From assembly GCA_001823925.1 (NCBI GenBank), contig MHWB01000004.1:22390-86389 (forward strand): a stretch of DNA of 64,000 nt, in the 5' to 3' direction. Both the position numbers and the translations under genes were made by a program. The notes under the pieces were generated by a model, which was given only the letters and a program-made list of their open reading frames with translations, was not told the DNA's origin and made no database searches. Every line of letters begins with the position of its first letter. Within the stretch, counting starts at the first letter, position 1. Below, piece by piece: positions 3,077-61,310 of this stretch. The DNA is from Candidatus Zambryskibacteria bacterium RIFCSPLOWO2_01_FULL_39_39 (GTDB lineage: Bacteria > Patescibacteriota > Minisyncoccia > Phycocordibacterales > WO2-35-19).

Positions 3077-3110
3077 AATTTTTTCTTATATAAATTTAAA
3101 AACTTAGGAA

Positions 3111-3750: not shown

Positions 3751-3787
3751 ACCCACAGTTTAATTAAATTTCGGATAAAAAGAAAGA

Positions 3788-4280: not shown

Positions 4281-4333
4281 AGTTTATCTTAAGGTAACCT
4301 TATGTCAAGCCCCATGGCATTTTTTGATGTGCA

Positions 4334-5191
4334 CTATGAATGGTGACATAGATTATTCTCGCCTAGAAATTGTATTAATATTTCAGACAGTTTTTCTTCA
4401 TTGTCCTGAAAATCGTGGTCGCAATCCAAGATTTGTACGGTTTTAGCATTTGAATTCTCTTTTCTTATCAAATCCAAAGCCTCTGTGATTGGAATTACAG
4501 TATACTCTTCTTGATCTCCGATGACTGCCAAAATAGGAATCTTTATTTTCCTAAAAGAAGGCAGGTGCTTCTTGTGGAAAGGCAATGCGTCATCAAATTC
4601 AGGATTGAGGTCTGAAAAATCAACGTATGATTCCGCACTTTTAGGCATAATATTCCCATATGCATTTCTATCAAGGAAGACTTTTCCTTTGTCCTCCCGC
4701 ACAAGGTTACGAGCATATTCAATTTTCTTTTCATAGTCTTGAACAAGCAACGGTTCCGAACCCGAAGAAGTGGCGGGGGCAAGAAGTACAAGGGCAGAAA
4801 CTTTACCAGCATATTTCCCACGAATCATATAGTACGTAATTTTTTCCGTACCTAAGCTGTGCCCAGAAAGAATTATTTTTTCGTATCCTTGTTCCAAAGC
4901 GAATTCAATCCATGAATCTATATCAATCAAGCAGTCAGAAAACTTCTCAACCGCTGCACCATTTCCTTGCCATGCATCGTAAACTCCAGTTCCCCTATTA
5001 TTCGTCGAAAGCATAGATATGCCTTGGTGGGCCAATTTTTCAGTCAAAACTTCTATAAAGTATTCTTCATAAAAGTTACTTGCTGTTCCATGTATGTTCA
5101 AAAATATAGTTTTACTGTTCGGTACACGGAGATGAAGCGCATGAAGCCACAAATTATCTGGCGTCTTTATTTGTACGATTGGATAATTCAT
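4334..5191 (-). CDS. Alpha/beta-fold hydrolase
   Basis: 285-aa ORF. GHSLG nucleophile elbow (LSGHSLGTE) with an HGTASNFYEE region upstream of it. Confidence 0.6.
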   Translation of the reverse strand: MNYPIVQIKTPDNLWLHALHLRVPNSKTIFLNIHGTASNFYEEYFIEVLTEKLAHQGISMLSTNNRGTGVYDAWQGNGAAVEKFSDCLIDIDSWIEFALEQGYEKIILSGHSLGTEKITYYMIRGKYAGKVSALVLLAPATSSGSEPLLVQDYEKKIEYARNLVREDKGKVFLDRNAYGNIMPKSAESYVDFSDLNPEFDDALPFHKKHLPSFRKIKIPILAVIGDQEEYTVIPITEALDLIRKENSNAKTVQILDCDHDFQDNEEKLSEILIQFLGENNLCHHS

Positions 5192-5270
5192 TTTTTATTT
5201 TGCATATTTTTTTGATGCTCACCTGTATTCAAAATTCCACATTTTTTGAAATGTGTCCGAAATGGAAGCA

Positions 5271-5543
5271 TCATTTTAGGGATATTATTTGTAGGCCCTT
5301 TTCCTGTATATCTTCCATCTGCCAAAACTGCGTAAGATCATCAATTTTCCACTTTCCTACATAGCCAACTTCCCTTTCCAATTCTCGCCCAGTGTACTCC
5401 TTAGATTTTGGGTCCCATTCTCGCAGGAGTAGAGTATCGCCGTCTTCAATATCAAAGTCATTGAGTCGCAATTCAAAGGTTTTCTTACCATCAGTAATTG
5501 CTTGGAAATACTCTGGCCATATCTTTTTCTCAACTTTTTTCAT
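5271..5543 (-). CDS. ASCH/DUF3850-like small protein
   Basis: 90-aa ORF. KKTFELRLNDFDIEDGDTLLLRE matches the ASCH-like DUF3850 beta-barrel core. Confidence 0.45.
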   Translation of the reverse strand: MKKVEKKIWPEYFQAITDGKKTFELRLNDFDIEDGDTLLLREWDPKSKEYTGRELEREVGYVGKWKIDDLTQFWQMEDIQEKGLQIISLK

Positions 5544-5634
5544 ACAACCAGTTTAATCAAAATTCAGATAAAAAGAAAGTCGAGATGTTTCGGTTTTCTA
5601 GGAAGCGGAAGTGCTTCTATATTTAGCGATTACT

Positions 5635-5850
5635 TCAAGATTTTAGAAAATCCTTTAGATCAACTTGAATGTCTCTAAGTATTTTATGCAAAGTGCCTCG
5701 TGCAACAGGATTATTTGCCGGCACTGTTATTGAAATATTATCCCTTCTCATCCTAATATGGCTCCCTTTCTGCCTTACAACAGAATAACCTAGTTGCTCC
5801 AACTTGTTTATTACTTTTCTATAAGGCCAAGATGGAACCTTGATTTTCAA
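5635..5850 (-). CDS. hicA: Type II toxin HicA
   Basis: 71-aa ORF with the KGSHIRM...ITVP HicA/YcfA signature. Confidence 0.7.
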   Translation of the reverse strand: MKIKVPSWPYRKVINKLEQLGYSVVRQKGSHIRMRRDNISITVPANNPVARGTLHKILRDIQVDLKDFLKS

Positions 5851-5856
5851 CTTTGA

Positions 5857-6105
5857 TTAAATAGTTACCGTATGGAGACTTATCTCTCTGGGAGAGTATG
5901 ATTCTGCTATTTCGACATTTTCCTCCTCTTCAAGACAAAGCTCAATAACTTCTCTTATGTTTTTTAGAGCTTCGTCAAGAGTTCTACCCTGGGAATAGCA
6001 GCCACTAAAAACGGGACACTCTACAACATAGAAACCATCCTCGTCTTTTTCTACAAATACGGGGAATTGCTTGCCACCCACTGATTTAAATAGTTTTTTC
6101 TTCAT
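5857..6105 (-). CDS. hicB: Type II antitoxin HicB
   Basis: 82-aa ORF. FPVFVEKDEDGFYVVECPVFSGCYSQGRTLDEALKNIREVIELCLEE is the canonical HicB/UPF0150 N-terminal domain. It lies 6 nt upstream of hicA. Confidence 0.7.
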   Translation of the reverse strand: MKKKLFKSVGGKQFPVFVEKDEDGFYVVECPVFSGCYSQGRTLDEALKNIREVIELCLEEEENVEIAESYSPREISLHTVTI

Positions 6106-6124
6106 AAATATATGATATCACAAA

Positions 6125-18919: not shown

Positions 18920-18959
18920 GTTACTCTGTATTTGGATAGTATTTTTGAAAAGGGGAGAA

Positions 18960-20252
18960 ATGAAAACCAACTTGGTTACCGATCTGATTGGGAGCAAAAA
19001 AATCATTATCTATGGTGCTGGGAGGATAGGAAAGCAAGTTCTCCTCGCACTTCGACCTTGTGGACGCACACCAGAATTCTTCTGGGATAAGAATGCCGCC
19101 ACCATTGGCGCGTCCATCGATGATGTTAGTATATTTGAGCCAAACTTTGACTTCATTCCTCAAAACCTAAGGAACGAATACTCCGTGATCATCACAGTGG
19201 CAGCCAAAGATGTCGGACGCCGGATCGGCAACGATTTGGCGAGTCTCGACTACAACGTCATCTACGATAGAGAGACGATCAACACCTTTATCTACAAAAC
19301 ATGCGAAGTGGCTGTTGCAGATGGAACTTTCGTTTTCAACTTGGAAACTTGTCGTACGTGCCCAGTTCCAACAACCGACGGACAGGCTTCCTGCGACATC
19401 TTCAACGGATATCTAGTAAATCTAGCCGGAGGGGCAGAGAGTACTCAAACCAAAGCGGAAAAACTTATCATCCCAAGACTCGGACTCTTGATAGGCAACA
19501 AATGCAACCTGTGTTGCAATGGGTGCAACCACCTAGTTGATCTCTACAAGCCCGGCGAGGCTCAATTCTTGAAGACCTCCGACCTTCTCTACGACATCGC
19601 AAGAGTCTCGAAAGAAGCAGACCTCATTAATAAAGTGGTGGTCGTCGGAGGAGAGGCTTTCCTTCACCCAGATCTACAAGAGATTCTGAGAAGGCTTCTT
19701 GATCTGCCGAAAATAGGATTCGTTCAGATCATAACCAACGGAGCAGTCAAACCAAAAGATCCCAGCCTATTTAAGTTGTTGGGAAACGAGAGGATTATCG
19801 TCGAGATTAGTGGCTATGGTAGTGAACTCTCGGCCCGATTAAGTCAGAGCGTACAGGAATTCCAAGCCCAGCTTAGAGAATACAACGTCTCTCACCATTA
19901 TTTGGGAACACTTCAGTGGTTTGATTTTGGCAATTTCTCAAAGAGGCCTTACTCCGAAGCGGAGCACAAGCGAGTCTACGAAACATGTTGTTCCGTTTCG
20001 AACGACATCTGGGACGGAAGACTCTACAAGTGTAGTCGTAGCGCAATCGGAACACACTTAGGTCATCTTCCAGATTTCCATGGCGATTACGTCGACCTGC
20101 GACAACATTCGGGCGCGGAGTTGAGACAGAAGTTAATCCAGTTCTTTGAGAACAAAGGGCCAGAAGCGTGTCTGCACTGCAACGGGGCTTCGTCTACCTC
20201 TGTAATTGAAGCAGGTAAACAAGTCCCCAGATTTCAGATTCACCAGCAATGA
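18960..20252 (+). CDS. Radical SAM protein with N-terminal Rossmann-like domain and C-terminal Cys-rich auxiliary region
   Basis: ~50% GC. CNLCCNGC = CxxxCxxC, GGEAFLHPD and IITNG motifs. N-terminal IIIYGAGRIG glycine loop. The C-terminal Cys cluster (CCSVSND...CSRS...CLHCNG) is SPASM/twitch-like. The GGGGAG SD 4 nt upstream supports the ATG at 18960 over the TTG at 18945. Confidence 0.65.
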   Translation: MKTNLVTDLIGSKKIIIYGAGRIGKQVLLALRPCGRTPEFFWDKNAATIGASIDDVSIFEPNFDFIPQNLRNEYSVIITVAAKDVGRRIGNDLASLDYNVIYDRETINTFIYKTCEVAVADGTFVFNLETCRTCPVPTTDGQASCDIFNGYLVNLAGGAESTQTKAEKLIIPRLGLLIGNKCNLCCNGCNHLVDLYKPGEAQFLKTSDLLYDIARVSKEADLINKVVVVGGEAFLHPDLQEILRRLLDLPKIGFVQIITNGAVKPKDPSLFKLLGNERIIVEISGYGSELSARLSQSVQEFQAQLREYNVSHHYLGTLQWFDFGNFSKRPYSEAEHKRVYETCCSVSNDIWDGRLYKCSRSAIGTHLGHLPDFHGDYVDLRQHSGAELRQKLIQFFENKGPEACLHCNGASSTSVIEAGKQVPRFQIHQQ

Positions 20253-20269
20253 GTGATCTGAAACCAATC

Positions 20270-20298
20270 ACCCACCGTGTCACACTGGTGGGTTTTTT
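20270..20298 (+). terminator. Rho-independent terminator
   Basis: ACCCACC-gtgtcacact-GGTGGGT stem followed by TTTTTT, 18 nt after the stop of the first radical SAM gene. Confidence 0.55.
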
Positions 20299-20322
20299 AT
20301 TATATTAAGACTTAATTTACTG

Positions 20323-20365
20323 TTGACATCTTAATAAATTTTAAGCAGTATGGAGGAGGACTCCC
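20323..20365 (+). promoter_or_regulatory. Putative sigma70-like promoter plus GGAGGAGG Shine-Dalgarno
   Basis: TTGACA at 20323-20328, a 17-nt spacer, then a weak -10 (CAGTAT). A GGAGGAGG SD sits 8 nt before the ATG at 20369. Confidence 0.3.
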
Positions 20366-20368
20366 GTA

Positions 20369-21436
20369 ATGGGAAGTTCTTTACACAAGGAGTATCAAAT
20401 GAGATTGCCTAGATACGATATACGAGAGACAGCATTGGAGACGGTAATTCCGCTTTCCACTCCGCTTTTAATTTACGTCGACCCCTCTAGCGCCTGCAAT
20501 TTCCAGTGTGGATTCTGTCCCACTGCAGATCGAGACTTAATGAAGCAGACAAGGTTTGTTGGCTTCATGGACTTTGACCTCTACCGCAAGATCATCGACG
20601 ACTTCAGAGAGTTTGATCGACCGATCGATAAGTTGAAGCTCTACTGTGATGGCGAACCACTGCTCAACCCGCGCTTTGCGGACATGGTCCGCTATGCCAA
20701 AAAAAGCGGGCTCGTGAATCGGATCACGACTACGACCAATGCTTCCCGTCTCTCGCCTGAATTAAACCTTCGGATCGTTGAAGCGGGTCTAGATCAGATT
20801 AACATCTCGGTCTATGGTATGAACGCGGATCAGTACCGTGATTTTTCCAAAACCAAGATAGAGTTTGATTCTTTGGTAGCAAACATCCGCCACCTTTACG
20901 AACATCGAAGCCAATGTGAAATCAAGGTGAAGATCAACGGTGATGTCATTTCGCGGGAAGACGAGGTTCGGTTCTATGAAATTTTTGAACCGATCGCCGA
21001 CGGAGTAAACGTGGAGCACGTAATGTCGTGTTGGGTACAGACACCAGAGTGGAACCTTGCAGAAAATGGCCTCGCTCCCAACCCCAATACCGGAATCCAC
21101 GGTCAGTCCATTCAAGATGTCCTTGTGTGCCCGTATGTTTTCTACTCCTTTACCATTCATCCAGACGGCACGGCAAGCGCATGTTTTCTGGACTGGCAGA
21201 GAAAACTTCTGATCGGTGATGTACGGACCCAGAGCGTTAAAGAAATCTGGGATGGACCTCTCTTGCGGGAACACCAAGCTCTTATGCTCCAAGGCAAACG
21301 GAGGAGTCACCCTATCTGTGGTAGTTGTGGCCAGATGAGCCACGGTGTAGTACCCCAAGACAACATTGATCCTCACCGAGAGGTGCTTCTAGATGGGTTC
21401 GAGAAGCGACTTGTACAAATTCAACCGAGGAATTGA
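20369..21436 (+). CDS. Radical SAM / SPASM-domain protein (anSME / peptide-maturase-like)
   Basis: ~50% GC. CNFQCGFC = CxxxCxxC, GEPLLNP, and a C-terminal SPASM-type Cys array (CPYVF...DG...C...CGSCGQ). Confidence 0.75.
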   Translation: MGSSLHKEYQMRLPRYDIRETALETVIPLSTPLLIYVDPSSACNFQCGFCPTADRDLMKQTRFVGFMDFDLYRKIIDDFREFDRPIDKLKLYCDGEPLLNPRFADMVRYAKKSGLVNRITTTTNASRLSPELNLRIVEAGLDQINISVYGMNADQYRDFSKTKIEFDSLVANIRHLYEHRSQCEIKVKINGDVISREDEVRFYEIFEPIADGVNVEHVMSCWVQTPEWNLAENGLAPNPNTGIHGQSIQDVLVCPYVFYSFTIHPDGTASACFLDWQRKLLIGDVRTQSVKEIWDGPLLREHQALMLQGKRRSHPICGSCGQMSHGVVPQDNIDPHREVLLDGFEKRLVQIQPRN

Positions 21437-21456
21437 TTCTTCCGGTTGGCTATTTC

Positions 21457-21496
21457 GCGACGTATACTTCCAAGTTTACGTCGCTTTTATTTTTAT
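21457..21496 (+). terminator. Rho-independent terminator
   Basis: Perfect 8-bp stem GCGACGTA / TACGTCGC with a 12-nt loop, followed by TTTTATTTTTAT. Confidence 0.6.
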
Positions 21497-21545
21497 GGTA
21501 AGTAAGACAAGTTTTATAGGATATGCTAATATCCAATTTAATAAA

Positions 21546-22697
21546 ATGGGTAAAAAAACTAAAATTAAGCAAGCTGTGATAGTAGCTGGAGGCAAAGGCT
21601 CTCGGCTAAAATCACTTACCGACGACCGACCCAAACCGATGGTGTTAGTCAATGGACGACCTTTTTTGGAATACCTTGTCAGGATGCTCGTGGCAAATGG
21701 CCTCAAAGAAGTGTTGATTCTCGTCGGTTATAAAGGCGAGAAAATTATTGAGCATTTTGGAGACGGCTCCAAATTTGGAATCAAGATTAAATATTCAATC
21801 GGGACAATAGAGGAAAATAATGGCACTCGCTTAAAAAACGCAACTCATCTTTTGGATAAACACTTTTTATTTATGTATTGCGATATTTATTGGCCGTTAG
21901 ATTTGGAAAAATTGATCAGGCATTATGACAAGTACGATGTCTTGGGAATGATGACTCTCTATAACAACAAAGATAATCGGGGTGAATATGGTACGAGAAA
22001 CCTGGTCCAACTGACTACTTCCGGCCACATTATAAATTACGGGCCATGGCAGGATGATGTTTTGTACTCTCCCACCTTTAAGGGCATAGACTTGGGCTAT
22101 TATATCTTGAACCGAGACGTAGTGCCTTTGATGCCCAAAAAAGATTTTGAGTTTCAAGGAGGTTTGGTCAGCCAAAAACTAGCTCCAAACAAAGAACTCA
22201 TCGGTTTTGGTACCGATCATACCTATTGCACCATTACAGACATCAATTTTCTTAAAATGGCCGAGAAATTTTTGGCTCCGAAAAGAATAATATTTCTTGG
22301 GTACGATGTATTAAACGAACACTTCTCTAAAACCCTACCGGCACTCAAAATGCTTCAAGCCAATGACTATAAGATATTCGTCATGGGAAATAAACCCGAC
22401 CATACCAAATCTTATTCAAAAATAAAAAGTGAACTTAAGCGTCAAAAAATTCAAATCAAAAGATTTTATTTCTGTTCCCACCACCCAAAAGACCGGTGCG
22501 AATGCCGTTTGCCCAGAGCCGGTTTATTCTTTCAAGCAGCCGGTGATCATCATATCAATCTGACCGAATCATTTTTTATAGATTCTAATAAATGGAGTTC
22601 ATTTATCGGCGAGGAAACAGGCTGTCAAACTTTAATAATTTCTAAAAAAGATTCCCTGCTTAAATTGGTTAAAAGAATTGTTGCTCTTGACTTTTAA
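21546..22697 (+). CDS. Bifunctional sugar-phosphate nucleotidyltransferase / HAD-family (GmhB-like) phosphatase
   Basis: N-terminal AVIVAGGKGSRLKSLTDDRPKPMV (NTP-transferase G-loop). C-terminal RIIFLGYDVLNEHF...CSHHPKDRCECRLPRAGL resembles the GmhB HAD IIIA phosphatase. I prefer the ATG at 21546 because the 21393 start overlaps the upstream gene. Confidence 0.6.
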   Translation: MGKKTKIKQAVIVAGGKGSRLKSLTDDRPKPMVLVNGRPFLEYLVRMLVANGLKEVLILVGYKGEKIIEHFGDGSKFGIKIKYSIGTIEENNGTRLKNATHLLDKHFLFMYCDIYWPLDLEKLIRHYDKYDVLGMMTLYNNKDNRGEYGTRNLVQLTTSGHIINYGPWQDDVLYSPTFKGIDLGYYILNRDVVPLMPKKDFEFQGGLVSQKLAPNKELIGFGTDHTYCTITDINFLKMAEKFLAPKRIIFLGYDVLNEHFSKTLPALKMLQANDYKIFVMGNKPDHTKSYSKIKSELKRQKIQIKRFYFCSHHPKDRCECRLPRAGLFFQAAGDHHINLTESFFIDSNKWSSFIGEETGCQTLIISKKDSLLKLVKRIVALDF

Positions 22698-22738
22698 AAG
22701 TAAACAATATATGATTTCTCCTAGAAGGAGGTGCGCAA

Positions 22739-23518
22739 GTGTACACCAGCAGACAAGCAAAAGCAGCTTTGAAAAAGATTGTTTGGAAAGAAGGGAAAAT
22801 CTTCCCAATTGCAGAGGGGCCATATCGCTATCGAACTTTGGTCCACTGCAGCAAAGAAGGCCGACAAAGGACCGAGTTTGCCAACGGCGAGCGTCCATAT
22901 TTTTGTTATTTAGAGCTCGTCGCCGGCAATAGTGGTGCCATCAAGGGAGGGGTTAGTATAGTGCCGATTCTCCCCGATGGCCGACTCATTATGGTAGTGG
23001 AACAACGACCAGCTCAGTACCACCACCATCCAGCTATTAATCCCTGGATCAACGGGATAGAGACAGATTTGGGTCAATATGGGCCTTTCAGCTCTCTTGA
23101 GTTTCCAGGAGGAGCCATCGATCCCGGACAAGGACTTAAGGGAGCGTTTCTTCAGGAACTATCGGAAGAAACTGAGGTGGAGGAACAGACCGCTCTCTGC
23201 TACCGCAGAGTGCATCCCGTCCACTGCGCTGGCTCTGAAATCGTTGGGGAGCAATTCATTGCTGTGATATTTTTGTCCGGTCTCACCCATGCTTCCAAAG
23301 TGGAGACGGACGGTGGGCTAAAGGTTTTCGCCTTAAGCCCAAAAGAGGTTCAGAAAAATATCTGGAGGGGCGCCATCAGTTCCGGGCCAACATTGCATGG
23401 GTGGATGTTTTACCAAGAAGTGTTGGGGATGAGAGAAAATCTCCAACACCAAGAGCTCATGGAGCAAACCATGAGCTACGTAGAGATGGAAGAAATAAAC
23501 ATTGCCAAGCAAAAATAA
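22739..23518 (+). CDS. Nudix-like hydrolase
   Basis: ~55% GC. FPGGAIDPGQGLKGAFLQELSEETEV is a Nudix-box-like sequence. GTG start preceded by a GAAGGAGG SD. Confidence 0.5.
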   Translation: MYTSRQAKAALKKIVWKEGKIFPIAEGPYRYRTLVHCSKEGRQRTEFANGERPYFCYLELVAGNSGAIKGGVSIVPILPDGRLIMVVEQRPAQYHHHPAINPWINGIETDLGQYGPFSSLEFPGGAIDPGQGLKGAFLQELSEETEVEEQTALCYRRVHPVHCAGSEIVGEQFIAVIFLSGLTHASKVETDGGLKVFALSPKEVQKNIWRGAISSGPTLHGWMFYQEVLGMRENLQHQELMEQTMSYVEMEEINIAKQK

Positions 23519-23539
23519 GATTTCACAATCAGTCCCTCT

Positions 23540-23569
23540 GGGAGCCGCTTCGCGGCTCCCTTTTCTTTT
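23540..23569 (+). terminator. Rho-independent terminator
   Basis: GGGAGCCGC-ttc-GCGGCTCCC 9-bp stem followed by TTTTCTTTT. Confidence 0.65.
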
Positions 23570-23600
23570 GCAGAATTTCCTGATAATCTAGATTATTCAT

Positions 23601-23972
23601 ATGGAGAAGCACAAAATTCACTTACTTTTTATTTGCACAGCCAATGTTGTGCGGAGCCCGGTAGCGGCTAGCCTTTTTGAAAAATCAAACAAATATGAAG
23701 CAAGGTCAGCCGGCACATCACTTAGTCCAGACTTCCCTAACGCTACAGCCGTGAACCAAGAACTAATAGATTGGGCTGACGAGATCATTGTCATGTCGGA
23801 AAAAGAAGATCATCACGCAACTTACCTCTCCACTCATTTTGATTTGAAAGATAAAAAAATAAAAGTGCTCGATATACCCAATATTTATATCGTTGGGATA
23901 CCAGAGCATCAAGCAACTCTTCTTCAAATATTAAAACAAAAACTGGCTGGCTATCTTGACATTAATAAATAA
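23601..23972 (+). CDS. Low-molecular-weight phosphotyrosine phosphatase / ArsC-like protein
   Basis: 123 aa. LLFICTANVVRSP fits the CX5R(S) P-loop of the LMW-PTP/arsenate reductase fold. Confidence 0.5.
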   Translation: MEKHKIHLLFICTANVVRSPVAASLFEKSNKYEARSAGTSLSPDFPNATAVNQELIDWADEIIVMSEKEDHHATYLSTHFDLKDKKIKVLDIPNIYIVGIPEHQATLLQILKQKLAGYLDINK

Positions 23973-24003
23973 GTATGTATAGTACAGGGAGGAAGGAATA
24001 CCG

Positions 24004-24309
24004 ATGGAAATATTCGGAAGTTGGTCTAAAGAGATTACTTGTCCAGAGTGCGGATCACTTCTGGGCATCACTGCCGAGGACATTACTTTCAAAGTAAAAG
24101 AGCCGGCCGAACACAAAAGACGCAGTGAGCGGGGCAAGCCCATCTACTTTGTCGCCTGCCCCGAATGCCGTCGCGAAATCGTAATCCAGGAAAGTTTCAG
24201 CGGCAGCCTGCCCGAATCGGTCAAGGCGACGGCACAGGAACGGACCGGGTTTGACTCAAAAGAGTACTTCGGGCGTCCCTTGTACGCTCCGTGGGACAAT
24301 GGCACATAA
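24004..24309 (+). CDS. Zinc-ribbon hypothetical protein
   Basis: 101 aa, ~55% GC, two CPEC pairs (Cys4 zinc ribbon). Strong AGGGAGGAAGG SD. Confidence 0.4.
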   Translation: MEIFGSWSKEITCPECGSLLGITAEDITFKVKEPAEHKRRSERGKPIYFVACPECRREIVIQESFSGSLPESVKATAQERTGFDSKEYFGRPLYAPWDNGT

Positions 24310-48159: not shown

Positions 48160-49983
48160 TTAGTTTTCGCCTTTCAAAATTTTTCGCAAAACATCTTCTG
48201 GTACTTCCTTTGTCTCATCAGCGCTTTTGATGGATGTTGGTGTTTTTTCTTTACCCACATCTTGTGCCTTTTCACTTTCTAACTTTTTTAACGCTTCTTT
48301 CAGAGAATTTACATTTTCTGGCGATGGTTCCTTGTTTTTGTTTTTATTTCCGAGTCTTAATTCATTTAGCGACATCGTCTCTTTTTTTTGTTCCGGCTTC
48401 ATCTCTTCTTTTGTATTTTCTTTGCTTTTTATCGCTTCTCCTATTGCTTTTGCTAAAATATTTGTTTTCTCCACTTTTGGTGGCTCAATTTTGATTTCTT
48501 TGATTTCCGGTTTTTTTATTTCTATGGGTTTGGTTTGTTCGTATTTTATTTCTTTTCTTTCTGGAAGTGCCTCCTTCTTAACTTCTACTTTTTCACTTCG
48601 TATTTGCAAACTCCCGCCCGCCGGGGCAACGTTTCGGACAAGTTGCTCAGGTTGACCCGCCCGCCCCGGCTTCACCGCAGACGAGTCGGGCAGGTGCCAC
48701 TCTTTTATAGCTTTTTCCACTTCTTCCTTGGGATTTGCGTAAGTTTTCCTAGACATTTCCAATGCTTCGTCTCTAAAAGAAATCTCTGGTTTCAGGATGG
48801 CGGGCAGGGTGGTAGCTGAAAATGGTTGGGAGGCAACTTGGTCTATCATCAGTTTCAAATATACTTGATACAAACCCAAGTTTACAATATCCTCCATAGT
48901 AAAGACGGGAGCAAATTCTTTCTCCAAAATTTCGGCATCAAACGAGCCAACCCTGAAAGCCACCATTGTGCCCACGTTGCCAAAAACCGCCGCCTTCACT
49001 TCTTCGGCCATTTGTTCAATATATTGATGGGTAATATTTAGGCCTAATTTATATTTTCTAGATTCAGACAAAATATCGGCAAAGCTTTTGTTAGCAAAAG
49101 ATTGAAACTCATCCACATATAAATAAAAATTTGGAAGTTTCTTGAGCTCTTTTGGATCAACATCGGCACGAGACATTGCAGCCAAATATATTTTGGTCAC
49201 AAGCATTGAACCCAAAAGGTTGGCGTTGCCCTCACCCACCAATCCTTTAGACAAATTTACTATCAAAATTTTCTTCTCATCCATTATTTTTCTAACATCA
49301 AAAGAAGATTTGGGCTGACCTATAATATTTCTAATAAGTGGATTAGAAACAAACTGGCCAACTTTGTTTTGAATGGCTGGTGTCGCTTCAGCCGCATATT
49401 TGTCTGTATATTTAGCAAATTCATCAACCCAAAAAGATCTGGTGGTTGGATCTGTAACATTATCTACTACTTTGTTTCTATAAACTTTGTCGGTCAGCAT
49501 CCTGTTTATACCAAGCATAGTAGCTCCCGGATATTCAAGCAAAGCCGCCAAGGTGTTTTGCAAAATATAAGCCATCCTAGATGACCACTGATCTTCCCAA
49601 ATTTTTTCAAAAGCGCTCATAAGTCCTGAAACCACCAAGTGTCTTCTTTCGGGACCAACGTCTTCCATTACATTAAACGAAACGGGGAACTCGGTATCAA
49701 ACGGAGCAAAATAAATAACATCTTTGACGCGGTGTTCTGGAATATAATCAAGCAAAAGATCAGCGGTCTTGCCGTGCGGATCTAAAAAAGCCATCCCTTC
49801 GCCGTTTTGGATATCTTGAATAGCCATATTTTCAAGCATGGTTGATTTGCCCATACCAGTCTTGCCAATAGAGTAAACGTGGCGAAGACGGTCTTCATCT
49901 TTAATGCCAAACTTCACTCGCTTATTACGCGCATCTGTCTCGGCAAAATATGTTATATGATTAGAATTATCCATTGATACCAT
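48160..49983 (-). CDS. P-loop ATPase of the VirD4/TraD/HerA-FtsK superfamily (DUF87-like) with Lys/Glu-rich C-terminal tail
   Basis: Walker A in IGKTGMGKST, Walker B in FYLYVDEFQSF. A ~200-aa low-complexity KE-rich tail. A GC-rich ~90-nt segment at 48610-48700 is embedded in the tail. Confidence 0.5.
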   Translation of the reverse strand: MVSMDNSNHITYFAETDARNKRVKFGIKDEDRLRHVYSIGKTGMGKSTMLENMAIQDIQNGEGMAFLDPHGKTADLLLDYIPEHRVKDVIYFAPFDTEFPVSFNVMEDVGPERRHLVVSGLMSAFEKIWEDQWSSRMAYILQNTLAALLEYPGATMLGINRMLTDKVYRNKVVDNVTDPTTRSFWVDEFAKYTDKYAAEATPAIQNKVGQFVSNPLIRNIIGQPKSSFDVRKIMDEKKILIVNLSKGLVGEGNANLLGSMLVTKIYLAAMSRADVDPKELKKLPNFYLYVDEFQSFANKSFADILSESRKYKLGLNITHQYIEQMAEEVKAAVFGNVGTMVAFRVGSFDAEILEKEFAPVFTMEDIVNLGLYQVYLKLMIDQVASQPFSATTLPAILKPEISFRDEALEMSRKTYANPKEEVEKAIKEWHLPDSSAVKPGRAGQPEQLVRNVAPAGGSLQIRSEKVEVKKEALPERKEIKYEQTKPIEIKKPEIKEIKIEPPKVEKTNILAKAIGEAIKSKENTKEEMKPEQKKETMSLNELRLGNKNKNKEPSPENVNSLKEALKKLESEKAQDVGKEKTPTSIKSADETKEVPEDVLRKILKGEN

Positions 49984-49995
49984 TATACAATATAA

Positions 49996-50094
49996 ATTAT
50001 TCTAATTATACTAATTGACCTAATTATTCTAAACAAACCCCAATTCCAAATTTCTCAATTTAGGTTAATTAGAAATTATAATAATTAGGTCAAT
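49996..50094. repeat. AT-rich CTAATT-based inverted-repeat element (member of a 3-locus family)
   Basis: Left arm ATTATTCTAATTATACTAATTGACCTAATTATTCTAAACAAACCCCA (49996-50042). Right arm TTAGGTTAATTAGAAATTATAATAATTAGGTCAAT (50060-50094) is inverted and shares ATTGACCTAATTATT. Confidence 0.5.
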
Positions 50095-51578: not shown

Positions 51579-51609
51579 AAAAGCATTTTAACATAAAAAT
51601 TTTTTAATC

Positions 51610-51643
51610 AAAAAGAAAACCCCCACACCTTGCGGCGTGGGGG
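51610..51643 (-). terminator. Rho-independent terminator
   Basis: CCCCCACGCC-gcaa-GGTGTGGGGG (one mismatch) followed by UUUUCUUUUU on the minus strand, 25 nt after the GC-rich gene stop. Confidence 0.55.
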
Positions 51644-51667
51644 GTCGGGCACTAGACCCAAACCAAA

Positions 51668-52771
51668 CTAACTAGCAACAGACTCGGCAACCTCGGATTC
51701 GGTGGTTACCTCGGATTCGGATCCTGCGGCTACCACTTCCTCTGCCACTCGCTGGATGTCATCCAGCAATTTTTCGGTCGGCACCGAGGACTCTTCCGAC
51801 TCCTCATGCAATGCCTCAACCTCTTCCTTGGGAACATACTTTCCCCGCGGAATCGGCTTTTGGGACTTCATTGCCGCAACCTTCCTCATCAACCAATGGT
51901 CGGAACCAATAAAACCCATTTGGTTCGGGCCCATATGATTGACCGCACTCTTGGCGTCGTAGAGAAGATCCTTGGTGACTTCTTTTCCAACCGCCAAACA
52001 GCAGTCAATAATGAAGGAAATCCGGTACGGAGAGGTTTTGTTTTCGACCCTCTCAGCTTGGATCTGCTTCACCACTGCCGACACTCCTCCTTCTCCAAAG
52101 AGAAGGTCCTGGACCAACTCTTTGGGGCAGTTCTTAATGAACATTGAGGCATTTTGCCGATCGAGGAAGAGATTTTTCTTCATCTTCTCGGTGAGGCGCT
52201 CCCAGTCGACCTTTTCAACGAGAAGCCCAGGGTACAGGACATCATACACCCCGTCACGACACTTGTCCCAATAATCGCGACCGTGGCCACCATCTTTTGG
52301 ACTCATACCCATCAGTGTCCTGAACACACCCATGGGAGTGTGGTCCTCCAGCTCCAGCTGAATCGCCGCCTTCGCCAACTTTTCGGCGAATAGGTTGCCG
52401 CCCTCGATCGTCTCCGTTTTCCGAACGACTCCCAATGTCCTCGCCGGCACCGTGTCGGCAACAGGCTTCTTGGGTGGGAGCACCGCCGACGGTGGTGGCG
52501 CCACGGGCTTGGACACCTGCTGTTGGGCGGGTGGGGCCGACACTGCCGGCACCGCTACTACGACATCGGTTTTCTGTCGCCCGTCCGGCACCGACATCGC
52601 CGTGGCGATCTCGACCCAAAACTTCTGGCTGTCTCCGAAGATCGTCCTGGTTGCTTCCGCCCTCTCGGACAGAGAAGCATTTTTGTTGTTCAGGATTTGG
52701 ATGGCCTCAGCGGCCCTCTTGAGAAAATCCTCGACCCCATTCGTGGTGAGGATGTTCGTCGTGTTCATCAT
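51668..52771 (-). CDS. Hypothetical protein in a GC-rich (~55%) island
   Basis: Long ORF with codon usage distinct from the flanks. Pro/Ala/Val-rich linker (AVPAVSAPPAQQQVSKPVAPPPSAVLPP) and an acidic C-terminal tail. I prefer the MMNTTNIL start. Confidence 0.4.
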   Translation of the reverse strand: MMNTTNILTTNGVEDFLKRAAEAIQILNNKNASLSERAEATRTIFGDSQKFWVEIATAMSVPDGRQKTDVVVAVPAVSAPPAQQQVSKPVAPPPSAVLPPKKPVADTVPARTLGVVRKTETIEGGNLFAEKLAKAAIQLELEDHTPMGVFRTLMGMSPKDGGHGRDYWDKCRDGVYDVLYPGLLVEKVDWERLTEKMKKNLFLDRQNASMFIKNCPKELVQDLLFGEGGVSAVVKQIQAERVENKTSPYRISFIIDCCLAVGKEVTKDLLYDAKSAVNHMGPNQMGFIGSDHWLMRKVAAMKSQKPIPRGKYVPKEEVEALHEESEESSVPTEKLLDDIQRVAEEVVAAGSESEVTTESEVAESVAS

Positions 52772-52957
52772 GATAGAATCCTTTCTTGATTCTGTTTCAA
52801 AGGTCCATAAACACATCTCGCATTAACATGGTGCAAATGCAGACGCAAATATTCGTATCTAATCTACCTACAGTATAGCAAATCTTGTATCAAATGTCAA
52901 GCCCGATCTACGCTACTGCGCGGATCGGGCTTTTGGTGGCTCAACAGAGCCATATTT

Positions 52958-53614
52958 TTAGCGAGAGACTTTGGCGAAGTACCTCGCCACCATGTTGGCA
53001 AACTCCCTCCGCCGCCGGCATGTCCCGACATGGGGTGGAGTCAAAACGAAATGGTTTTCCGGTCTTATACTAACTACATACTCCCGAAAATCCAAAGGTA
53101 CAAATAATGGCGCCCCTTCCTCTGACGATTTTTTATTGTCTTTCTGCCACTTAGCAAGTCCACTCTTGAACCGAAACAAGTCGGACTGAAATTGAACTTC
53201 CGAGTACACCTCCCCTTCAAATTTACTGATCCAAAAATCTCGGAGAGAGACGAGTTCTCTAAATCCAATACTGAATGCGTCAATTGTTACCAAGTAAGGA
53301 AAAAGCCTCGGGAGAAAAAATAAGCCATCAGTTTGATGCTTTGCATCTGCCTTGGTATCCACTGTCGGGAGAAAGATGAGTCCGCTCGACTCTACCCCCA
53401 GCTTGTTCAGCTCTACCTCTACATGGTAGTAGAGAGATCTCCCTTTATTACAATCCGGATGTTTATCTGGATGTTTTGTCCTTGATTCCTCAATGATAGT
53501 TAAGACGTCCGACCCAAAATCTGCCTCCTCTCCTTTATATCTTTCTTTGAGATCCTCGCCGCTCGAGCGACAATTGAAGATTTCTCTCTCAAAATCAAAA
53601 CCTCTTGTAGACAT
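52958..53614 (-). CDS. Hypothetical protein in GC-rich island
   Basis: 218-aa ORF, ~47% GC, co-oriented with and upstream of the 51668 gene. No recognisable motif. Confidence 0.4.
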   Translation of the reverse strand: MSTRGFDFEREIFNCRSSGEDLKERYKGEEADFGSDVLTIIEESRTKHPDKHPDCNKGRSLYYHVEVELNKLGVESSGLIFLPTVDTKADAKHQTDGLFFLPRLFPYLVTIDAFSIGFRELVSLRDFWISKFEGEVYSEVQFQSDLFRFKSGLAKWQKDNKKSSEEGAPLFVPLDFREYVVSIRPENHFVLTPPHVGTCRRRREFANMVARYFAKVSR

Positions 53615-53659
53615 ATCATATGGTACCTTCCTACTTTACATAGTACCAAATGTATGTTT

Positions 53660-55993: not shown

Positions 55994-56371
55994 CTATTTC
56001 TCATTTAGAGATTTAATTTTATTTTGCAATTTATCTAATACACTTTTTATATCGTTTAAAACGTCATCGTTCCAGAATCTAATAGTGTCTACATCTAAGT
56101 TTCTTAAATATTTATCTCTATCCTGGTCATAGACTTTTCGTTCTTCCTTATTGTGAATCTCTCCATCAACTTCTATTCCTAAACGAATTTTGGAGCAGTA
56201 AAAATCTAAAACGTACGGTCCGACACTGTATTGCCTTAAAAATCTTAGTCCTAAGATTTTATCGTGAGATATATATTTCCATAATAACTTCTCAGCAGAA
56301 GTTTGATTGTTGCGAAGATCCCTGCGTCTATCTCTTAAAGATTTATGGTTGTAGAGAAATTTGGAGTCCAT
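55994..56371 (-). CDS. DUF559 endonuclease-domain protein (Vsr/restriction-endonuclease-like fold)
   Basis: LRFLRQYSVGPYVLDFYCSKIRLGIEVDGEIH matches the DUF559 core. Confidence 0.6.
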   Translation of the reverse strand: MDSKFLYNHKSLRDRRRDLRNNQTSAEKLLWKYISHDKILGLRFLRQYSVGPYVLDFYCSKIRLGIEVDGEIHNKEERKVYDQDRDKYLRNLDVDTIRFWNDDVLNDIKSVLDKLQNKIKSLNEK

Positions 56372-59810: not shown

Positions 59811-60962
59811 ATGCAAAATAAAAAGAAAATACTGTTTATCATCACTAAAGGCAATTTTGGCGGAGCCCAGAGGTATGTTTACGACTTAGCCACTTCCCTA
59901 CCAAAAAGTGAATTCGAGGCGGTAGTAGCCTGTGGCGAAGGAGATCTTTTGCCTAATAAGTTAGGAGAAGTGGGTATAAAAACAATCAAAATAAATAATC
60001 TGGTTCGAGAAATTAAAACTTTTAATGAGTTTAGTGTCTGTAAAGAATTGGTAGCTTTGATCCGAACAGAGAGACCGGATATAATTCATCTCAATTCTTC
60101 TAAAATGGGGGGGATTGGATCAGTAGCGGGAAGAATCGCCTCTATTTTAGAGAAAAACTACAAACCCAAAATTATCTTTACATCACACGGTTGGGGTTTT
60201 TATGAAAAACATCGACCTCTATTGTTTCGTTTATTTTTTTATTTAAGTCATTGGTTAACTATTCTTTTGTGTCACCAGACAATCGCGGTCTCAGAAAAAA
60301 CCAAAAAAGATATCGCATGGCTACCATTTATAAAAAATAAAATAAAAGTAATCCATAACGGGATCGAGGATTTTAAGTTGTTACCCAAAAAAGAAGCGGC
60401 TTTAATACTTGCAAAAACTGACAAAGAAAAAACTATTATTTTTTCTCTTTCCGAACTTCATCCAAACAAAGGGCTAGATGTGGCAATCAGAGGCATTGCC
60501 TTGTTGCCAGAAAACATTAGGGATAAAATAGCTTATTACATAGCCGGCGATGGAGAAGAAAAAGAAAGTTTGCAAAAATTGGCCAGAGATTTTGGAGTTT
60601 TAACCACAGTGCATTTTTTAGGATTTGTTGAAGATGCTAAAAAACTTTTGTCAGGGAGCAATATTTTCCTTTTTCCATCAAGAACCGAAAATTTACCTTA
60701 TGCTATTTTAGAAGCCGGTACGGCAGAGCTTCCGATTATTGCGACCTCAGTTGGAGGCATTCCGGAAATAATTAGAGACATGCAAAATGGTATTTTGGTG
60801 CATCCCCGAAATCCCAAAGAAATAGCTGAGGCTATTTTGTATTTGCTAGACCACCCGGAAAATCGGAAAGAATTTGGTGAAGAAATAAAAAAGACCGTAA
60901 TAAATTTTTTCAGTTTAGAAAAGATGTTGGAGGAAACTGAAAAAATTTATAAATTGCCCTAA
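59811..60962 (+). CDS. GT4 family glycosyltransferase
   Basis: ILFIITKGNFGGAQRYVYDLA N-terminal motif. The C-terminal region has FPSRTENLPYAILEAGTAELPIIAT (E-x7-E). Confidence 0.7.
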   Translation: MQNKKKILFIITKGNFGGAQRYVYDLATSLPKSEFEAVVACGEGDLLPNKLGEVGIKTIKINNLVREIKTFNEFSVCKELVALIRTERPDIIHLNSSKMGGIGSVAGRIASILEKNYKPKIIFTSHGWGFYEKHRPLLFRLFFYLSHWLTILLCHQTIAVSEKTKKDIAWLPFIKNKIKVIHNGIEDFKLLPKKEAALILAKTDKEKTIIFSLSELHPNKGLDVAIRGIALLPENIRDKIAYYIAGDGEEKESLQKLARDFGVLTTVHFLGFVEDAKKLLSGSNIFLFPSRTENLPYAILEAGTAELPIIATSVGGIPEIIRDMQNGILVHPRNPKEIAEAILYLLDHPENRKEFGEEIKKTVINFFSLEKMLEETEKIYKLP

Positions 60963-60995
60963 TTATTCTAATTAACCTAATTGGCCTAAAAATTA
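60961..60995. repeat. CTAATT-based repeat, left arm of a MITE-like pair
   Basis: TAATTATTCTAATTAACCTAATTGGCCTAAAAATT, paralogous to 49996-50042. Confidence 0.5.
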
Positions 60996-61059: not shown

Positions 61060-61260
61060 CCGATCGTTCGCTTGGGGGAAAGCCTCATAACTTGCCCCGT
61101 CTTTCATGGGGCTAAATCTCTGCAGAGACAATCCGGCATTACTGCGTCTCTACAGCCCAGAGATACTGCGATATCAACGAGATACCTAGTGGCTAGAGTA
61201 TCACTTTTCATTTGCATAATCAAGAATATTTATTGAGTGCTTTTAAATTGAAAACTGGGG
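61060..61260 (-). ncRNA. Candidate structured small RNA (unclassified)
   Basis: ~200-nt segment at ~52% GC in a 30% GC background. Contains several GC hairpins (GCCCC-n9-GGGGC, TCTCTGCAGAGA palindrome). It is flanked by inverted repeats and ends at the minus-strand terminator. Confidence 0.3.
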
Positions 61261-61261
61261 T

Positions 61262-61310
61262 TTGTTTAGAATAATTAGGTTAATTAGGGCAATTAGAATA
61301 ATTTTCTATT
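61262..61310. repeat. CTAATT-based repeat, right arm (inverted) of the MITE-like pair
   Basis: Its reverse complement, ATTATTCTAATTGCCCTAATTAACCTAATTATTCTAAACAAA, is ~90% identical to 49996-50038. Confidence 0.5.

What the first reader, a model, noticed from the sequence alone, without database searches (positions are those of the whole stretch)
51600..53640. Second GC-rich two-gene island of unknown function downstream of secDF
Two co-oriented ORFs (218 aa then ~367 aa) have ~47-55% GC, against SecF at ~35%. They have their own terminator and a plus-oriented hairpin (AGCCCGATC...GATCGGGCT, 52893-52925) between them. Neither protein has a recognisable catalytic motif. The larger one has a Pro/Ala-rich linker and an acidic tail. 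A compact, compositionally foreign two-gene module next to secretion genes is a typical footprint of an acquired defence, toxin-immunity or effector pair.
Basis: partly seen in the sequence, partly recalled or inferred. Interest (0 to 1): 0.55.

Follow-up and report, generated by a model that had tools for sequence, protein, structure and literature searches.

The report
Hypervariable GC-rich gene pair after secDF
Two unannotated genes just after secDF in a Zambryskibacteria (CPR) genome are not a recent foreign insertion; they sit at this spot in every relative examined, their alleles are swapped by recombination between strains, and the high GC content of the second gene is still being actively maintained.

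Summary
Two minus-strand genes, A (52958-53614, 218 aa, GC 0.45) and B (51668-52771, 367 aa, GC 0.55, GC3 0.67), follow secF (GC 0.38), with a hairpin between them and a terminator after B.

"Recently acquired foreign island" is not supported. The order secD-secF-A-B-p98-DUF4015-p607 recurs in about 15 distinct related CPR loci. B is GC-rich in all of them, although synonymous sites of the flanking genes are saturated between lineages. Polarised substitutions give an equilibrium GC3 of 0.63 for B against 0.28 for secDF, so the composition is maintained, not inherited from a donor.

Both genes are hypervariable mosaics. Two genomes with DNA-identical secDF share only 70% (A) and 52% (B) amino-acid identity, with sharp breakpoints. 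In another pair A alone is replaced.

A belongs to an unannotated family of about 65 clusters. It gives a very confident model (pLDDT 96) with invariant acidic residues, weakly reminiscent of restriction-endonuclease-fold nucleases. B has its own near-consensus promoter, a conserved N-terminal domain, a proline-rich linker and a variable helical C-terminal domain.

The pair matches no defence, phage, plasmid, Pfam or PDB entry. My best reading is a lineage-specific conflict or self/non-self module. Its function is inferred, not shown.

The parts
52958..53614 (-). Gene A: 218-aa soluble protein of an unannotated CPR-restricted family. Possible metal-dependent hydrolase or nuclease with a restriction-endonuclease-like core. 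It starts 45 nt after secF, so it is probably read through from secDF.
   Evidence: ORF. 65 cluster representatives among 1.84 billion proteins. Invariant P53/D90/D96/D112. AlphaFold pLDDT 96.4, pTM 0.91. Foldseek gives only non-significant hits, but these are dominated by PD-(D/E)xK nucleases. GC 0.449.
52900..52931 (-). GC-rich hairpin after gene A, followed by a T-rich stretch that overlaps B's -35 box. Probable terminator of the secDF-A transcript. A smaller hairpin lies at 52937-52952, just after A's stop codon.
   Evidence: z = -6.5 for the 76-nt stretch with both hairpins. An equivalent hairpin with a different stem sequence precedes the -35 box in all 12 loci examined (z -4.2 to -8.5).
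52872..52900 (-). Promoter of gene B: TTGACA, 17 nt, TATACT, with a TG extended -10.
   Evidence: 11 of 12 consensus matches. This is the most conserved DNA of the whole A-B interval across 12 loci.
52772..52865 (-). 5' untranslated region of B (about 94 nt), with a stem-loop, a TTTGAAA motif and a Shine-Dalgarno sequence (AAAGGA).
   Evidence: Sequence. A 5' UTR stem-loop is present in every locus, with a different sequence in each. TTTGAAA is conserved. The transcription start is inferred, not mapped.
51668..52771 (-). Gene B: 367-aa soluble protein with a conserved three-helix N-terminal domain (about aa 1-58), a disordered Pro/Ala/Val-rich linker carrying the conserved motif KPVAxxTxPARTL (ending near aa 113), a variable all-helical C-terminal domain and an acidic tail. 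GC 0.552, GC3 0.67.
   Evidence: dN/dS of 0.12-0.23 among close orthologues shows it is a real coding gene. It contains no ATA, TTA or AGA codons.
51610..51643 (-). Intrinsic terminator of B (CCCCCACGCCGCAAGGTGTGGGGG followed by TTTTCTTTTT).

Best explanation
This is a lineage-specific two-gene cassette at a fixed position in Zambryskibacteria-type CPR bacteria, and it is a hotspot of allele replacement.

Shown:
- A and B always lie between secF and p98/DUF4015.
- Strains whose flanking genes are identical carry anciently diverged versions of the core of A and of the linker plus C-terminal part of B. The breakpoints fall in short conserved blocks: the first ~20 codons of A, then the end of A, the intergenic region and the N-terminal domain of B. 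Alleles therefore move by homologous recombination from a large pool.
- A and B alleles assort independently.
- B is a separate transcription unit, with a terminator hairpin, a near-consensus extended -10 promoter, a 5' stem-loop, a Shine-Dalgarno sequence and a strong terminator.
- B's GC enrichment is confined to the ORF, is present in every lineage, and is sustained by a present-day substitution bias (equilibrium GC3 about 0.63 against about 0.28 next door).

Inferred:
- A is a cytoplasmic, usually basic, metal-dependent hydrolase, most likely a nuclease with a restriction-endonuclease-like alpha-beta-beta-beta-alpha-beta core. D96 would precede strand 2, D112 would lie on strand 3, and K150/Q143 would come from a helix. 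Its variable core would set specificity.
- B is an abundantly made partner or sensor. Its conserved N-terminal domain would be the constant interface and its variable C-terminal domain the diversifying one.
- Together or separately, they serve a conflict function under frequency-dependent selection: defence against mobile elements, or self/non-self or host interaction.
- The GC bias comes either from selection on the ORF or mRNA, or from GC-biased repair at this recombination hotspot.
For: Synteny in about 15 distinct loci.

Hypervariability:
- L018 versus L036: SecD and SecF show zero substitutions in 731 codons. A aa 23-165 has pS 0.77 and pN 0.24. B aa 61 to the end has pS 0.60 and pN 0.43. 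A aa 1-22 are identical and B aa 1-60 are nearly so.
- L001 versus L009: SecF is 97% and B 88% identical, but A only 39%. The blastn gap falls exactly over A.
- Most allele combinations recur in independent samples: L009 = L010, L018 = L038, L006 and L007. L036 has been seen only once.

Coding status: dN/dS is 0.12-0.23.

GC content:
- GC by gene.
- GC3 is high in all three parts of B, while the intergenic region and flanks are low.
- All codon families shift to G or C endings, including AAG and GAG.
- Equilibrium GC3 is 0.63 (CI 0.53-0.72) for B against 0.28 (0.23-0.34) for secDF. Fisher p = 0.004 for W>S and 8e-7 for S>W.
- Flank dS between lineages is 1.5-2.4 or saturated.

Gene A: family size, invariant residues, model with pLDDT 96.4 and its secondary-structure order, nuclease-rich though non-significant Foldseek lists, pI about 9 in most alleles and no transmembrane segment.

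Gene B expression signals.

No mobile-element signature.
Against: - No biochemical or database evidence supports any function. Foldseek E-values are 0.1 to above 1 with TM-scores of 0.1-0.25, which is statistically nothing.
- The canonical (D/E)xK lysine is absent (D112-A-F114).
- hhalign of the A profile against the window's own Vsr-like DUF559 gives a probability of 0.24%.
- PADLOC, PHROGs, Pfam, NCBIfam and PDB sequence searches are all negative.
- The B model is poor (pLDDT 44.5).
- A and B may be functionally unrelated neighbours. They are separately transcribed, their alleles assort independently (A versus B identity, Spearman 0.04), and A-family paralogues occur without B after secA and after a pyruvate-kinase-like gene.
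- All related loci were found through A or B, so genomes lacking the pair would have been missed.
- High expression of B is inferred from promoter quality only.
Confidence: 0.45

Rival explanations
1. One reading: a recently acquired foreign two-gene island (defence, toxin-immunity or effector) from a higher-GC donor that has not yet ameliorated.
For: B's codon usage looks like that of a genome with 55-60% GC. B is the strongest GC3 outlier in the window. It has no homologues outside a narrow clade.
Against: The position and order are the same in about 15 related loci whose flanking proteins are only 62-85% identical. B is GC-rich in all of them, although synonymous sites are saturated. Equilibrium GC3 for B is 0.63 rather than the ~0.28 expected for an ameliorating relic. 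There is no tRNA, integrase or direct repeat in the window, and no phage, plasmid or viral-contig relative.
Confidence: 0.04
2. A and B are two lineage-specific genes tied to the cell envelope or to Sec export. They would be fast-evolving because of weak constraint or surface exposure, not a conflict system, and A would be a Sec-associated factor rather than a nuclease.
For: The linkage to secDF is strict. A second A-family subfamily lies directly after secA in two lineages (L022, L040). The neighbours are envelope genes: p98 (a membrane protein), DUF4015 (a glycosidase-like protein) and GT4 glycosyltransferases.
Against: Neither protein has a signal peptide or a transmembrane segment. Weak constraint cannot create saturated divergence inside DNA-identical backgrounds; that requires allele import. 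A third context, after a pyruvate-kinase-like gene, is unrelated to Sec. Three invariant aspartates and a basic pI point to catalysis on an anionic substrate.
Confidence: 0.18
3. B is an exported effector or surface protein built like a polymorphic toxin, with a constant N-terminal delivery domain, a linker and a swappable C-terminal domain. It might be recruited by the nearby VirD4/TrwB-like ATPase p607. A would be an accessory or unrelated gene.
For: The domain plan of B and replacement of only its linker plus C-terminal part. A semi-conserved extreme C-terminus in many B proteins (hydrophobic-x-hydrophobic-Asn). p607 matches TrwB_AAD_bind at 22.6 bits against a cut-off of 20.5. Strong expression signals.
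Against: No known toxin, delivery or immunity domain was found. The downstream gene p98 does not co-vary with B's C-terminus (88-93% DNA identity where B's C-terminal part is 20-60%). No other type IV secretion genes were seen in the window's gene list. The p607 hit is marginal.
Confidence: 0.15
4. A is a free-standing homing-type endonuclease that cuts near its own locus. It thereby creates a recombination hotspot, whose repeated GC-biased repair produces both the mosaic alleles and the GC enrichment.
For: A has a nuclease-like fold and invariant acidic residues. A-family genes sit immediately 3' of highly conserved genes (secF, secA, a pyruvate-kinase-like gene), as free-standing homing endonucleases do. 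Whole-gene replacement of A occurs. A link between recombination and GC3 in bacteria has been reported (PMC4450053).
Against: A is present in every locus seen rather than sporadic. The GC enrichment stops at the ORF boundaries and is strongest in B, not around A. secF's 3' end is not GC-enriched. Known bacterial effects of GC-biased gene conversion are far smaller (my own knowledge of the field).
Confidence: 0.1

Closest known systems
PD-(D/E)xK (restriction-endonuclease-like) nucleases, e.g. EcoRV, T7 endonuclease I, VRR-NUC, Hjc, arenavirus cap-snatching endonuclease
   Same: The predicted order of secondary-structure elements is helix, three strands, helix and a later strand, with invariant acidic residues before strand 2 (D96) and on strand 3 (D112) and a conserved Lys/Gln on a helix. 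Nearly all named top Foldseek hits in both libraries are of this superfamily. Alleles are fast-evolving, as in restriction enzymes.
   Different: No hit is significant (E of 0.1 or higher, TM of 0.25 or lower). The lysine two residues after the strand-3 acid is replaced by Phe. There is no sequence-profile link to any Pfam, PDB or NCBIfam family. No adjacent methyltransferase.
Cassette shuffling at specificity loci (type I R-M hsdS target-recognition domains) and polymorphic toxin loci (variable C-terminal domains behind a constant N-terminal part)
   Same: Variable blocks are flanked by short conserved blocks that act as recombination anchors. Anciently diverged alleles sit in otherwise identical genomes. 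The N-terminal domain of B is constant and its C-terminal domain is replaceable.
   Different: No homology to HsdS, to any toxin or immunity domain, or to any delivery domain. No co-varying downstream immunity gene. The variable blocks lie in two separately transcribed genes.
Flexible or hypervariable genomic islets at conserved chromosomal positions in bacterial populations
   Same: Fixed flanks (secF on one side, p98/DUF4015 on the other) and strain-level replacement of the content in between.
   Different: The content is always the same two gene families, replaced allele for allele, rather than different gene sets. There is also a maintained, ORF-limited GC excess.
GC-biased gene conversion in bacteria (Lassalle et al. 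2015, PMC4450053)
   Same: Association of a recombining locus with raised GC3. The substitution-derived equilibrium GC3 of B is well above that of its neighbours.
   Different: The size of the effect (GC3 about 0.7 against about 0.25-0.35) and its sharp restriction to one ORF are far beyond what that work describes. Selection on the ORF or mRNA is an equally good explanation.
Type II toxin-antitoxin pairs
   Same: Two adjacent small-to-medium cytoplasmic genes, one of them possibly a nuclease.
   Different: A terminator and an independent strong promoter lie between the genes. B is 300-380 aa with no DNA-binding domain detected. Alleles assort independently, and A occurs without B elsewhere.

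Membership tests
PD-(D/E)xK nuclease superfamily (gene A) | Core alpha-beta-beta-beta-alpha-beta fold | tested here: inconclusive
   The model (pLDDT 96.4) has H56-71, E80-83, E97-100, E108-113, H118-131 ... E188-191 in a compatible order. Coordinates could not be inspected.
PD-(D/E)xK nuclease superfamily (gene A) | Catalytic signature D ... (D/E)-x-K on strands 2 and 3 | tested here: not met
   D96 and D112 are invariant, but the residue two positions after D112 is Phe114. K150 or Q143 on a helix could substitute, as in known variants, but this is unproven.
PD-(D/E)xK nuclease superfamily (gene A) | Significant structural or profile similarity to a member | tested here: not met
   Foldseek best E is 1.3 (PDB) and 0.1 (BFVD), with TM of 0.25 or lower. 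The PDB profile search gives nothing. hhalign against DUF559 gives a probability of 0.24%.
Horizontally acquired genomic island | Sporadic distribution among relatives; flanking tRNA, integrase or direct repeats; composition decaying towards that of the host | tested here: not met
   Same position in about 15 loci. No tRNA. No repeats. Equilibrium GC3 of 0.63 rather than about 0.28. Caveat: the loci were found through A or B.
Known anti-phage defence systems (PADLOC-DB 2.0) | Match to a model of a known or candidate defence protein | tested here: not met
   No hit for A or B. Among 63 A-family members there are only scattered single hits with E above 0.002.
Type II toxin-antitoxin operon | Co-transcribed, autoregulated bicistron with a cognate, co-varying pair | tested here: not met
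   A terminator hairpin and an independent promoter lie between the genes. A is replaced without B in L009 versus L001.
Polymorphic toxin / immunity locus (gene B) | Constant N-terminal part with a variable C-terminal domain | tested here: met
   B aa 1-60 have pS 0.07, while aa 61 to the end have pS 0.60 and pN 0.43, in genomes with identical secDF.
Polymorphic toxin / immunity locus (gene B) | Recognisable toxin or delivery domain, and a co-varying immunity gene immediately downstream | tested here: not met
   No Pfam or PDB match for 11 B proteins. The downstream p98 stays 88-93% identical where B's C-terminal part diverges.
Diversity-generating retroelement target | Template and variable repeat pair, a reverse transcriptase, and adenine-specific variation in a ~100-150 bp region | tested here: not met
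   No repeat involves the locus in the 64-kb window. The variation spans about 400-800 nt with indels. Avd-like PF05635 genes occur near the locus in some relatives only. Genome regions outside the window were not searched.
Structured non-coding RNA masquerading as an ORF (gene B) | Rfam match, or no signature of purifying selection on codons | tested here: not met
   No Rfam hit. dN/dS is 0.12-0.23 and GC3 > GC1 > GC2 in the annotated frame.

The most novel reading that the evidence does not exclude
The locus is a self-sustaining bacterial recombination hotspot. The A nuclease would make breaks at or near its own conserved-flank locus, driving continual allele conversion from a population-wide pool. 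GC-biased repair, or selection linked to it, would then hold one ORF at GC3 of about 0.7 in a genome at about 0.3. This would be a prokaryotic analogue of nuclease-defined recombination hotspots, coupled to a new diversifying immunity or recognition system of CPR bacteria.
Probability: 0.1. Interest if true: 0.85.

Novelty: new variant of a known kind. Interest (0 to 1): 0.55.

Why it matters
CPR bacteria are mostly uncultivated, and a large share of their genes have no annotation. This analysis identifies two unannotated families with a very distinctive evolutionary pattern: a fixed position, cassette-like exchange of ancient alleles between otherwise identical strains, and an ORF-limited GC excess that is demonstrably maintained.

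This matters in two ways. First, it is a concrete counter-example to the common heuristic that atypical GC means recent horizontal transfer. Second, it offers a tractable candidate for a CPR-specific conflict or recognition system: a small protein that models with high confidence and has an obvious putative active site to mutate. It also offers a natural test case for separating GC-biased gene conversion from selection on codons in bacteria.

Tried and rejected
- **Family searches.** Pfam, PHROGs, PADLOC and NCBIfam scans of A and B gave nothing. Scans of 63 A-family members (Pfam, PHROGs, PADLOC) and 11 B-family members (Pfam) gave only scattered chance hits.
- **Solved structures.** PDB sequence-profile searches with the A and B alignments gave nothing below E = 0.08.
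- **Fold search for A.** Foldseek of the A model against PDB and BFVD gave no significant hit. The nuclease enrichment is kept only as a lead.
- **Profile comparison.** hhalign of the A profile against the window's DUF559 (Vsr-like) gave a probability of 0.24%.
- **Structure of B.** The model has pLDDT 44.5, so I ran no fold search on it.
- **RNA-gene explanation.** Rfam found nothing, either at E up to 1 over the locus or at gathering threshold over the window.
- **DGR or silent-cassette explanation.** No repeats involve the locus, and there are no extra A or B fragments in the window.
- **Mobile-element origin.** tblastn of A and B against phage and plasmid collections, and a scan of viral contigs, found nothing. 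There are no tRNAs in the window.
- **First genome scan.** The scan with the 63-sequence alignment failed for lack of a conserved stretch. I repeated it with 17 sequences.
- **Translational-selection explanation for GC3.** I considered this unlikely because Lys and Glu also shift to AAG and GAG, and GC1 and GC2 are raised as well. It is not excluded, because no ribosomal-protein genes of this genome were available for comparison.
Full report
**What is there**

The window is from a Candidatus Zambryskibacteria genome (CPR/Parcubacteria). The two proteins are identical to NCBI 'hypothetical proteins' from Rifle-aquifer bins.

Both genes of the finding lie on the minus strand. Gene A is 52958-53614 (218 aa) and starts 45 nt after secF. 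Gene B is 51668-52771 (367 aa). An upstream ATG would give 382 aa, but the orthologue alignment and the AAAGGA Shine-Dalgarno sequence support 367 aa.

| Gene | GC | GC3 |
|---|---|---|
| A | 0.449 | 0.47 |
| B | 0.552 | 0.67 |
| SecF | 0.382 | 0.35 |
| SecD | 0.419 | 0.38 |
| Next genes downstream of B | 0.36-0.39 | |

Among the other 59 ORFs of the window (mean GC3 0.342, sd 0.069), B is the most extreme at z = 4.7.

The hairpin is real but lies at 52900-52931, about 6 nt from the coordinates given. The 76-nt stretch holding it and a smaller hairpin after A's stop has z = -6.5. The terminator after B is a 10-bp GC stem followed by a T-run.

**Signals between the genes**

The hairpin is followed immediately by TTGACA, 17 nt, TATACT with a TG extended -10, which is 11 of 12 consensus positions. 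The last T of the stem is the first T of the -35 box.

The same layout occurs in all 12 related loci I examined. Each has a GC-rich hairpin whose stem sequence differs while pairing is kept (z -4.2 to -8.5). Each then has an almost invariant promoter, TTGAC(T/A)-TTTTTATA..AATTTGCTATA(C/A)T. After that comes a 5' UTR of about 60-95 nt containing a stem-loop of different sequence in each lineage, a TTTGAAA motif and a strong Shine-Dalgarno sequence.

B is therefore its own transcription unit with signals typical of a strongly expressed gene; the expression level itself is inferred. A is probably read through from secDF.

**Not a recent insertion**

Protein searches found one relative of A and none of B at first. 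A profile of B plus its syntenic counterpart found four more B proteins. A full HMMER scan found 65 cluster representatives of the A family, all about 210-250 aa.

Every locus with enough sequence shows the order secD-secF-(sometimes a PF05635 gene)-A-B-p98-DUF4015-p607-GT4. This covers the window, L001, L006, L009, L012-L018, L026, L029 and L035-L037, plus duplicates from independent samples.

Flanking proteins are 62-85% identical to those of the window, with synonymous sites saturated (dS 1.5-2.4 or not computable). Even so, B has GC 0.46-0.63 and GC3 0.44-0.78 in every lineage, against flanks of 0.32-0.46.

There is no tRNA, Rfam family, flanking repeat or integrase in the window. There are no relatives in phage, plasmid or viral-contig collections.

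One caveat applies. All loci were retrieved through A or B, so genomes lacking the pair could not have been seen.

**The GC excess is maintained**

The enrichment is confined to the ORF. GC3 is high in B's N-terminal domain, linker and C-terminal domain alike (0.36-0.78, mostly 0.6-0.75). The A-B intergenic region is 0.36-0.44, and the DNA after B's stop is mostly 0.30-0.40.

All codon families shift to G or C endings:

| Codon | B | Neighbouring genes |
|---|---|---|
| AAG (Lys) | 69% | 26% |
| GAG (Glu) | 64% | 27% |
| ATA, TTA, AGA | none | common |

GC1 and GC2 are raised too.

I polarised substitutions in three close genomes (L001, L006, L009) and looked at third codon positions.

| Region | W>S | S>W | Equilibrium GC3 (95% CI) |
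|---|---|---|---|
| B | 27 of 78 W sites | 46 of 224 S sites | 0.63 (0.53-0.72) |
| Adjacent secDF | 71 of 377 W sites | 52 of 109 S sites | 0.28 (0.23-0.34) |

The Fisher tests give p = 0.004 for W>S and 8e-7 for S>W. A decaying relic of transfer would show the neighbours' spectrum. B does not, so a current fixation or mutation bias keeps it GC-rich. Candidates are selection on the ORF or mRNA, GC-biased gene conversion, or continual import from a GC-rich allele pool.

GC-biased gene conversion has been proposed for recombining bacterial genes (PMC4450053). The size and sharp ORF limits of the effect here are unusual, and I could not discriminate between the causes.

**Hypervariable mosaics**

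L018 and L036 have DNA-identical secD and secF: zero substitutions in 731 codons. Yet A is 70% and B 52% identical at the amino-acid level. A sliding-window comparison of the two loci gives this profile:

| Segment (L018 coordinates) | DNA identity |
|---|---|
| Up to about 60 nt into A | 100% |
| Core of A (5950-6350) | 52-73% |
| 3' end of A, intergenic region and B's N-terminal domain | 83-98% |
| B's linker and C-terminal domain, with indels | roughly 20-65% |
| Immediately after B's stop codon | 87-97% |

Within the variable blocks pS is 0.77 (A core) and 0.60 (B C-terminal part), with pN lower than pS. These are old alleles evolving under purifying selection, placed in an identical background. 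That means homologous replacement, not in-situ hypermutation.

In L001 versus L009, SecF is 97% and B 88% identical, but A is only 39%. The blastn gap coincides with gene A. L001 and L006 share A at 97% while their flanks are more diverged (dS 0.05 for A against 0.52 for SecF).

A and B identities are uncorrelated across loci (Spearman 0.04), so the two genes are exchanged independently. Most allele combinations recur in independent samples: L009/L010, L018/L038 and L006/L007. The L036 allele has been seen in one contig only.

Among close B orthologues dN/dS is 0.12-0.23, so B is a real protein-coding gene.

**What the proteins look like**

*Gene A.* With 63 family members, A gives a very confident model (pLDDT 96.4, pTM 0.91). 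Its elements are four N-terminal helices, strands at 80-83, 97-100 and 108-113, helices at 118-131 and 139-159, a strand at 188-191 and a C-terminal helix.

P53, D90, D96 and D112 are invariant. E9, F33, Q143, K150, R184, N187 and P193 are nearly invariant, and the stretch RPENHF(V/I)LTP is the most conserved.

No Foldseek hit is significant. Even so, nearly all named top hits in both libraries are restriction-endonuclease-fold nucleases: EcoRV, arenavirus endonucleases, EcoT38I, BsaWI, T7-type endonuclease I, VRR-NUC, Hjc-type resolvase and Mrr.

D96 precedes strand 2 and D112 lies on strand 3, as in that fold, but the canonical lysine is Phe114. Most A alleles are basic (pI about 9) and none has a membrane segment.

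I therefore treat 'metal-dependent nuclease-like enzyme' as the best inference, not as a membership call. Profile searches against PDB, Pfam, PHROGs, PADLOC and NCBIfam, and against the window's own DUF559, are all negative.

*Gene B.* B models poorly (pLDDT 44.5). The model suggests a three-helix N-terminal domain, a disordered linker of about 60 residues rich in Pro, Ala and Val, and an all-helical C-terminal domain. The linker contains the conserved motif KPVAxxTxPARTL (R111 and L113 invariant). Many family members end in hydrophobic-x-hydrophobic-Asn. No database match was found.

**Context clues**

A second A subfamily (31% identical to A) sits directly after secA, without B. This occurs in a genome whose SecA is 87% identical to the window's, and again in another lineage. 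Another A relative follows a pyruvate-kinase-like gene. A more distant locus keeps A-B-p98 together without a recognisable secF upstream.

p607, which is conserved downstream, is a weak but above-threshold match to the VirD4/TrwB coupling-protein domain. These observations allow three readings that I could not separate: a functional link to export, insertion next to highly conserved genes as homing endonucleases do, or coincidence.

**Verdict**

The interpretation 'foreign, acquired module' is not supported. The locus is a fixed, lineage-specific cassette that is replaced allele by allele, and its GC excess is maintained rather than inherited from a donor.

The suggestion of a conflict-type function survives only as an inference, drawn from the population pattern and from A's nuclease-like features. 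No known defence, toxin-antitoxin or polymorphic-toxin family can be assigned.

The families are new, the kind of locus (a hypervariable, recombining specificity locus) is known, and the ORF-limited, actively maintained GC enrichment is the unusual element. I rate interest as moderate, at 0.55.

Noticed in passing
window 18945-24309 (+): Four ORFs (435, 355, 259 and 101 aa) with GC 0.47-0.53 and GC3 0.51-0.60, interrupted by genes of normal composition.
   Followed up: no
window 49994-50053 and 61245-61304; also 60941-60994: A 60-nt inverted repeat pair (87% complementary) plus overlapping AATTATTCTAATTA-type direct copies. This is an intergenic repeat element present between p607 and DUF4015 and again near 61 kb.
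   Followed up: no
L006 8918-9136; L009 2934-3278; L001 5581-5949: PF05635 genes (23S_rRNA_IVP, Avd-like four-helix bundle) occupy different slots of the same syntenic block in different genomes. They lie between secF and A in L006 and L009, between DUF4015 and p636 in L001, and are absent from the window. No reverse transcriptase or template repeat was seen.
   Followed up: partly
L022 4309-5040; L040 271-1026; L042 228-986: A-family paralogues without a B gene. Two lie immediately downstream of secA, one of them in a genome whose SecA is 87% identical to the window's. One lies downstream of a pyruvate-kinase-like gene. The window itself has no second copy.
   Followed up: partly
window 48160-49983 (-): The conserved 607-aa P-loop protein downstream matches the VirD4/TrwB coupling-protein domain just above Pfam's cut-off (22.6 against 20.5 bits). 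It has a long Lys/Glu-rich tail.
   Followed up: partly
L006 11059-12114: An rve-family transposase gene sits directly after B in the position where other genomes have p98. This indicates an IS insertion at the edge of the cassette.
   Followed up: no
window 55994-56371 (-): A DUF559 (Vsr-like endonuclease fold) gene just upstream of secD is conserved at 66% identity in several related loci.
   Followed up: no
window 2438-8605 (-): The interval between secA (6125-8605) and the DedA/VTT-like gene (2438-3076) holds four small unrelated ORFs, whereas a close relative (L022) has the A paralogue there. This suggests a second variable slot next to a Sec gene.
   Followed up: no
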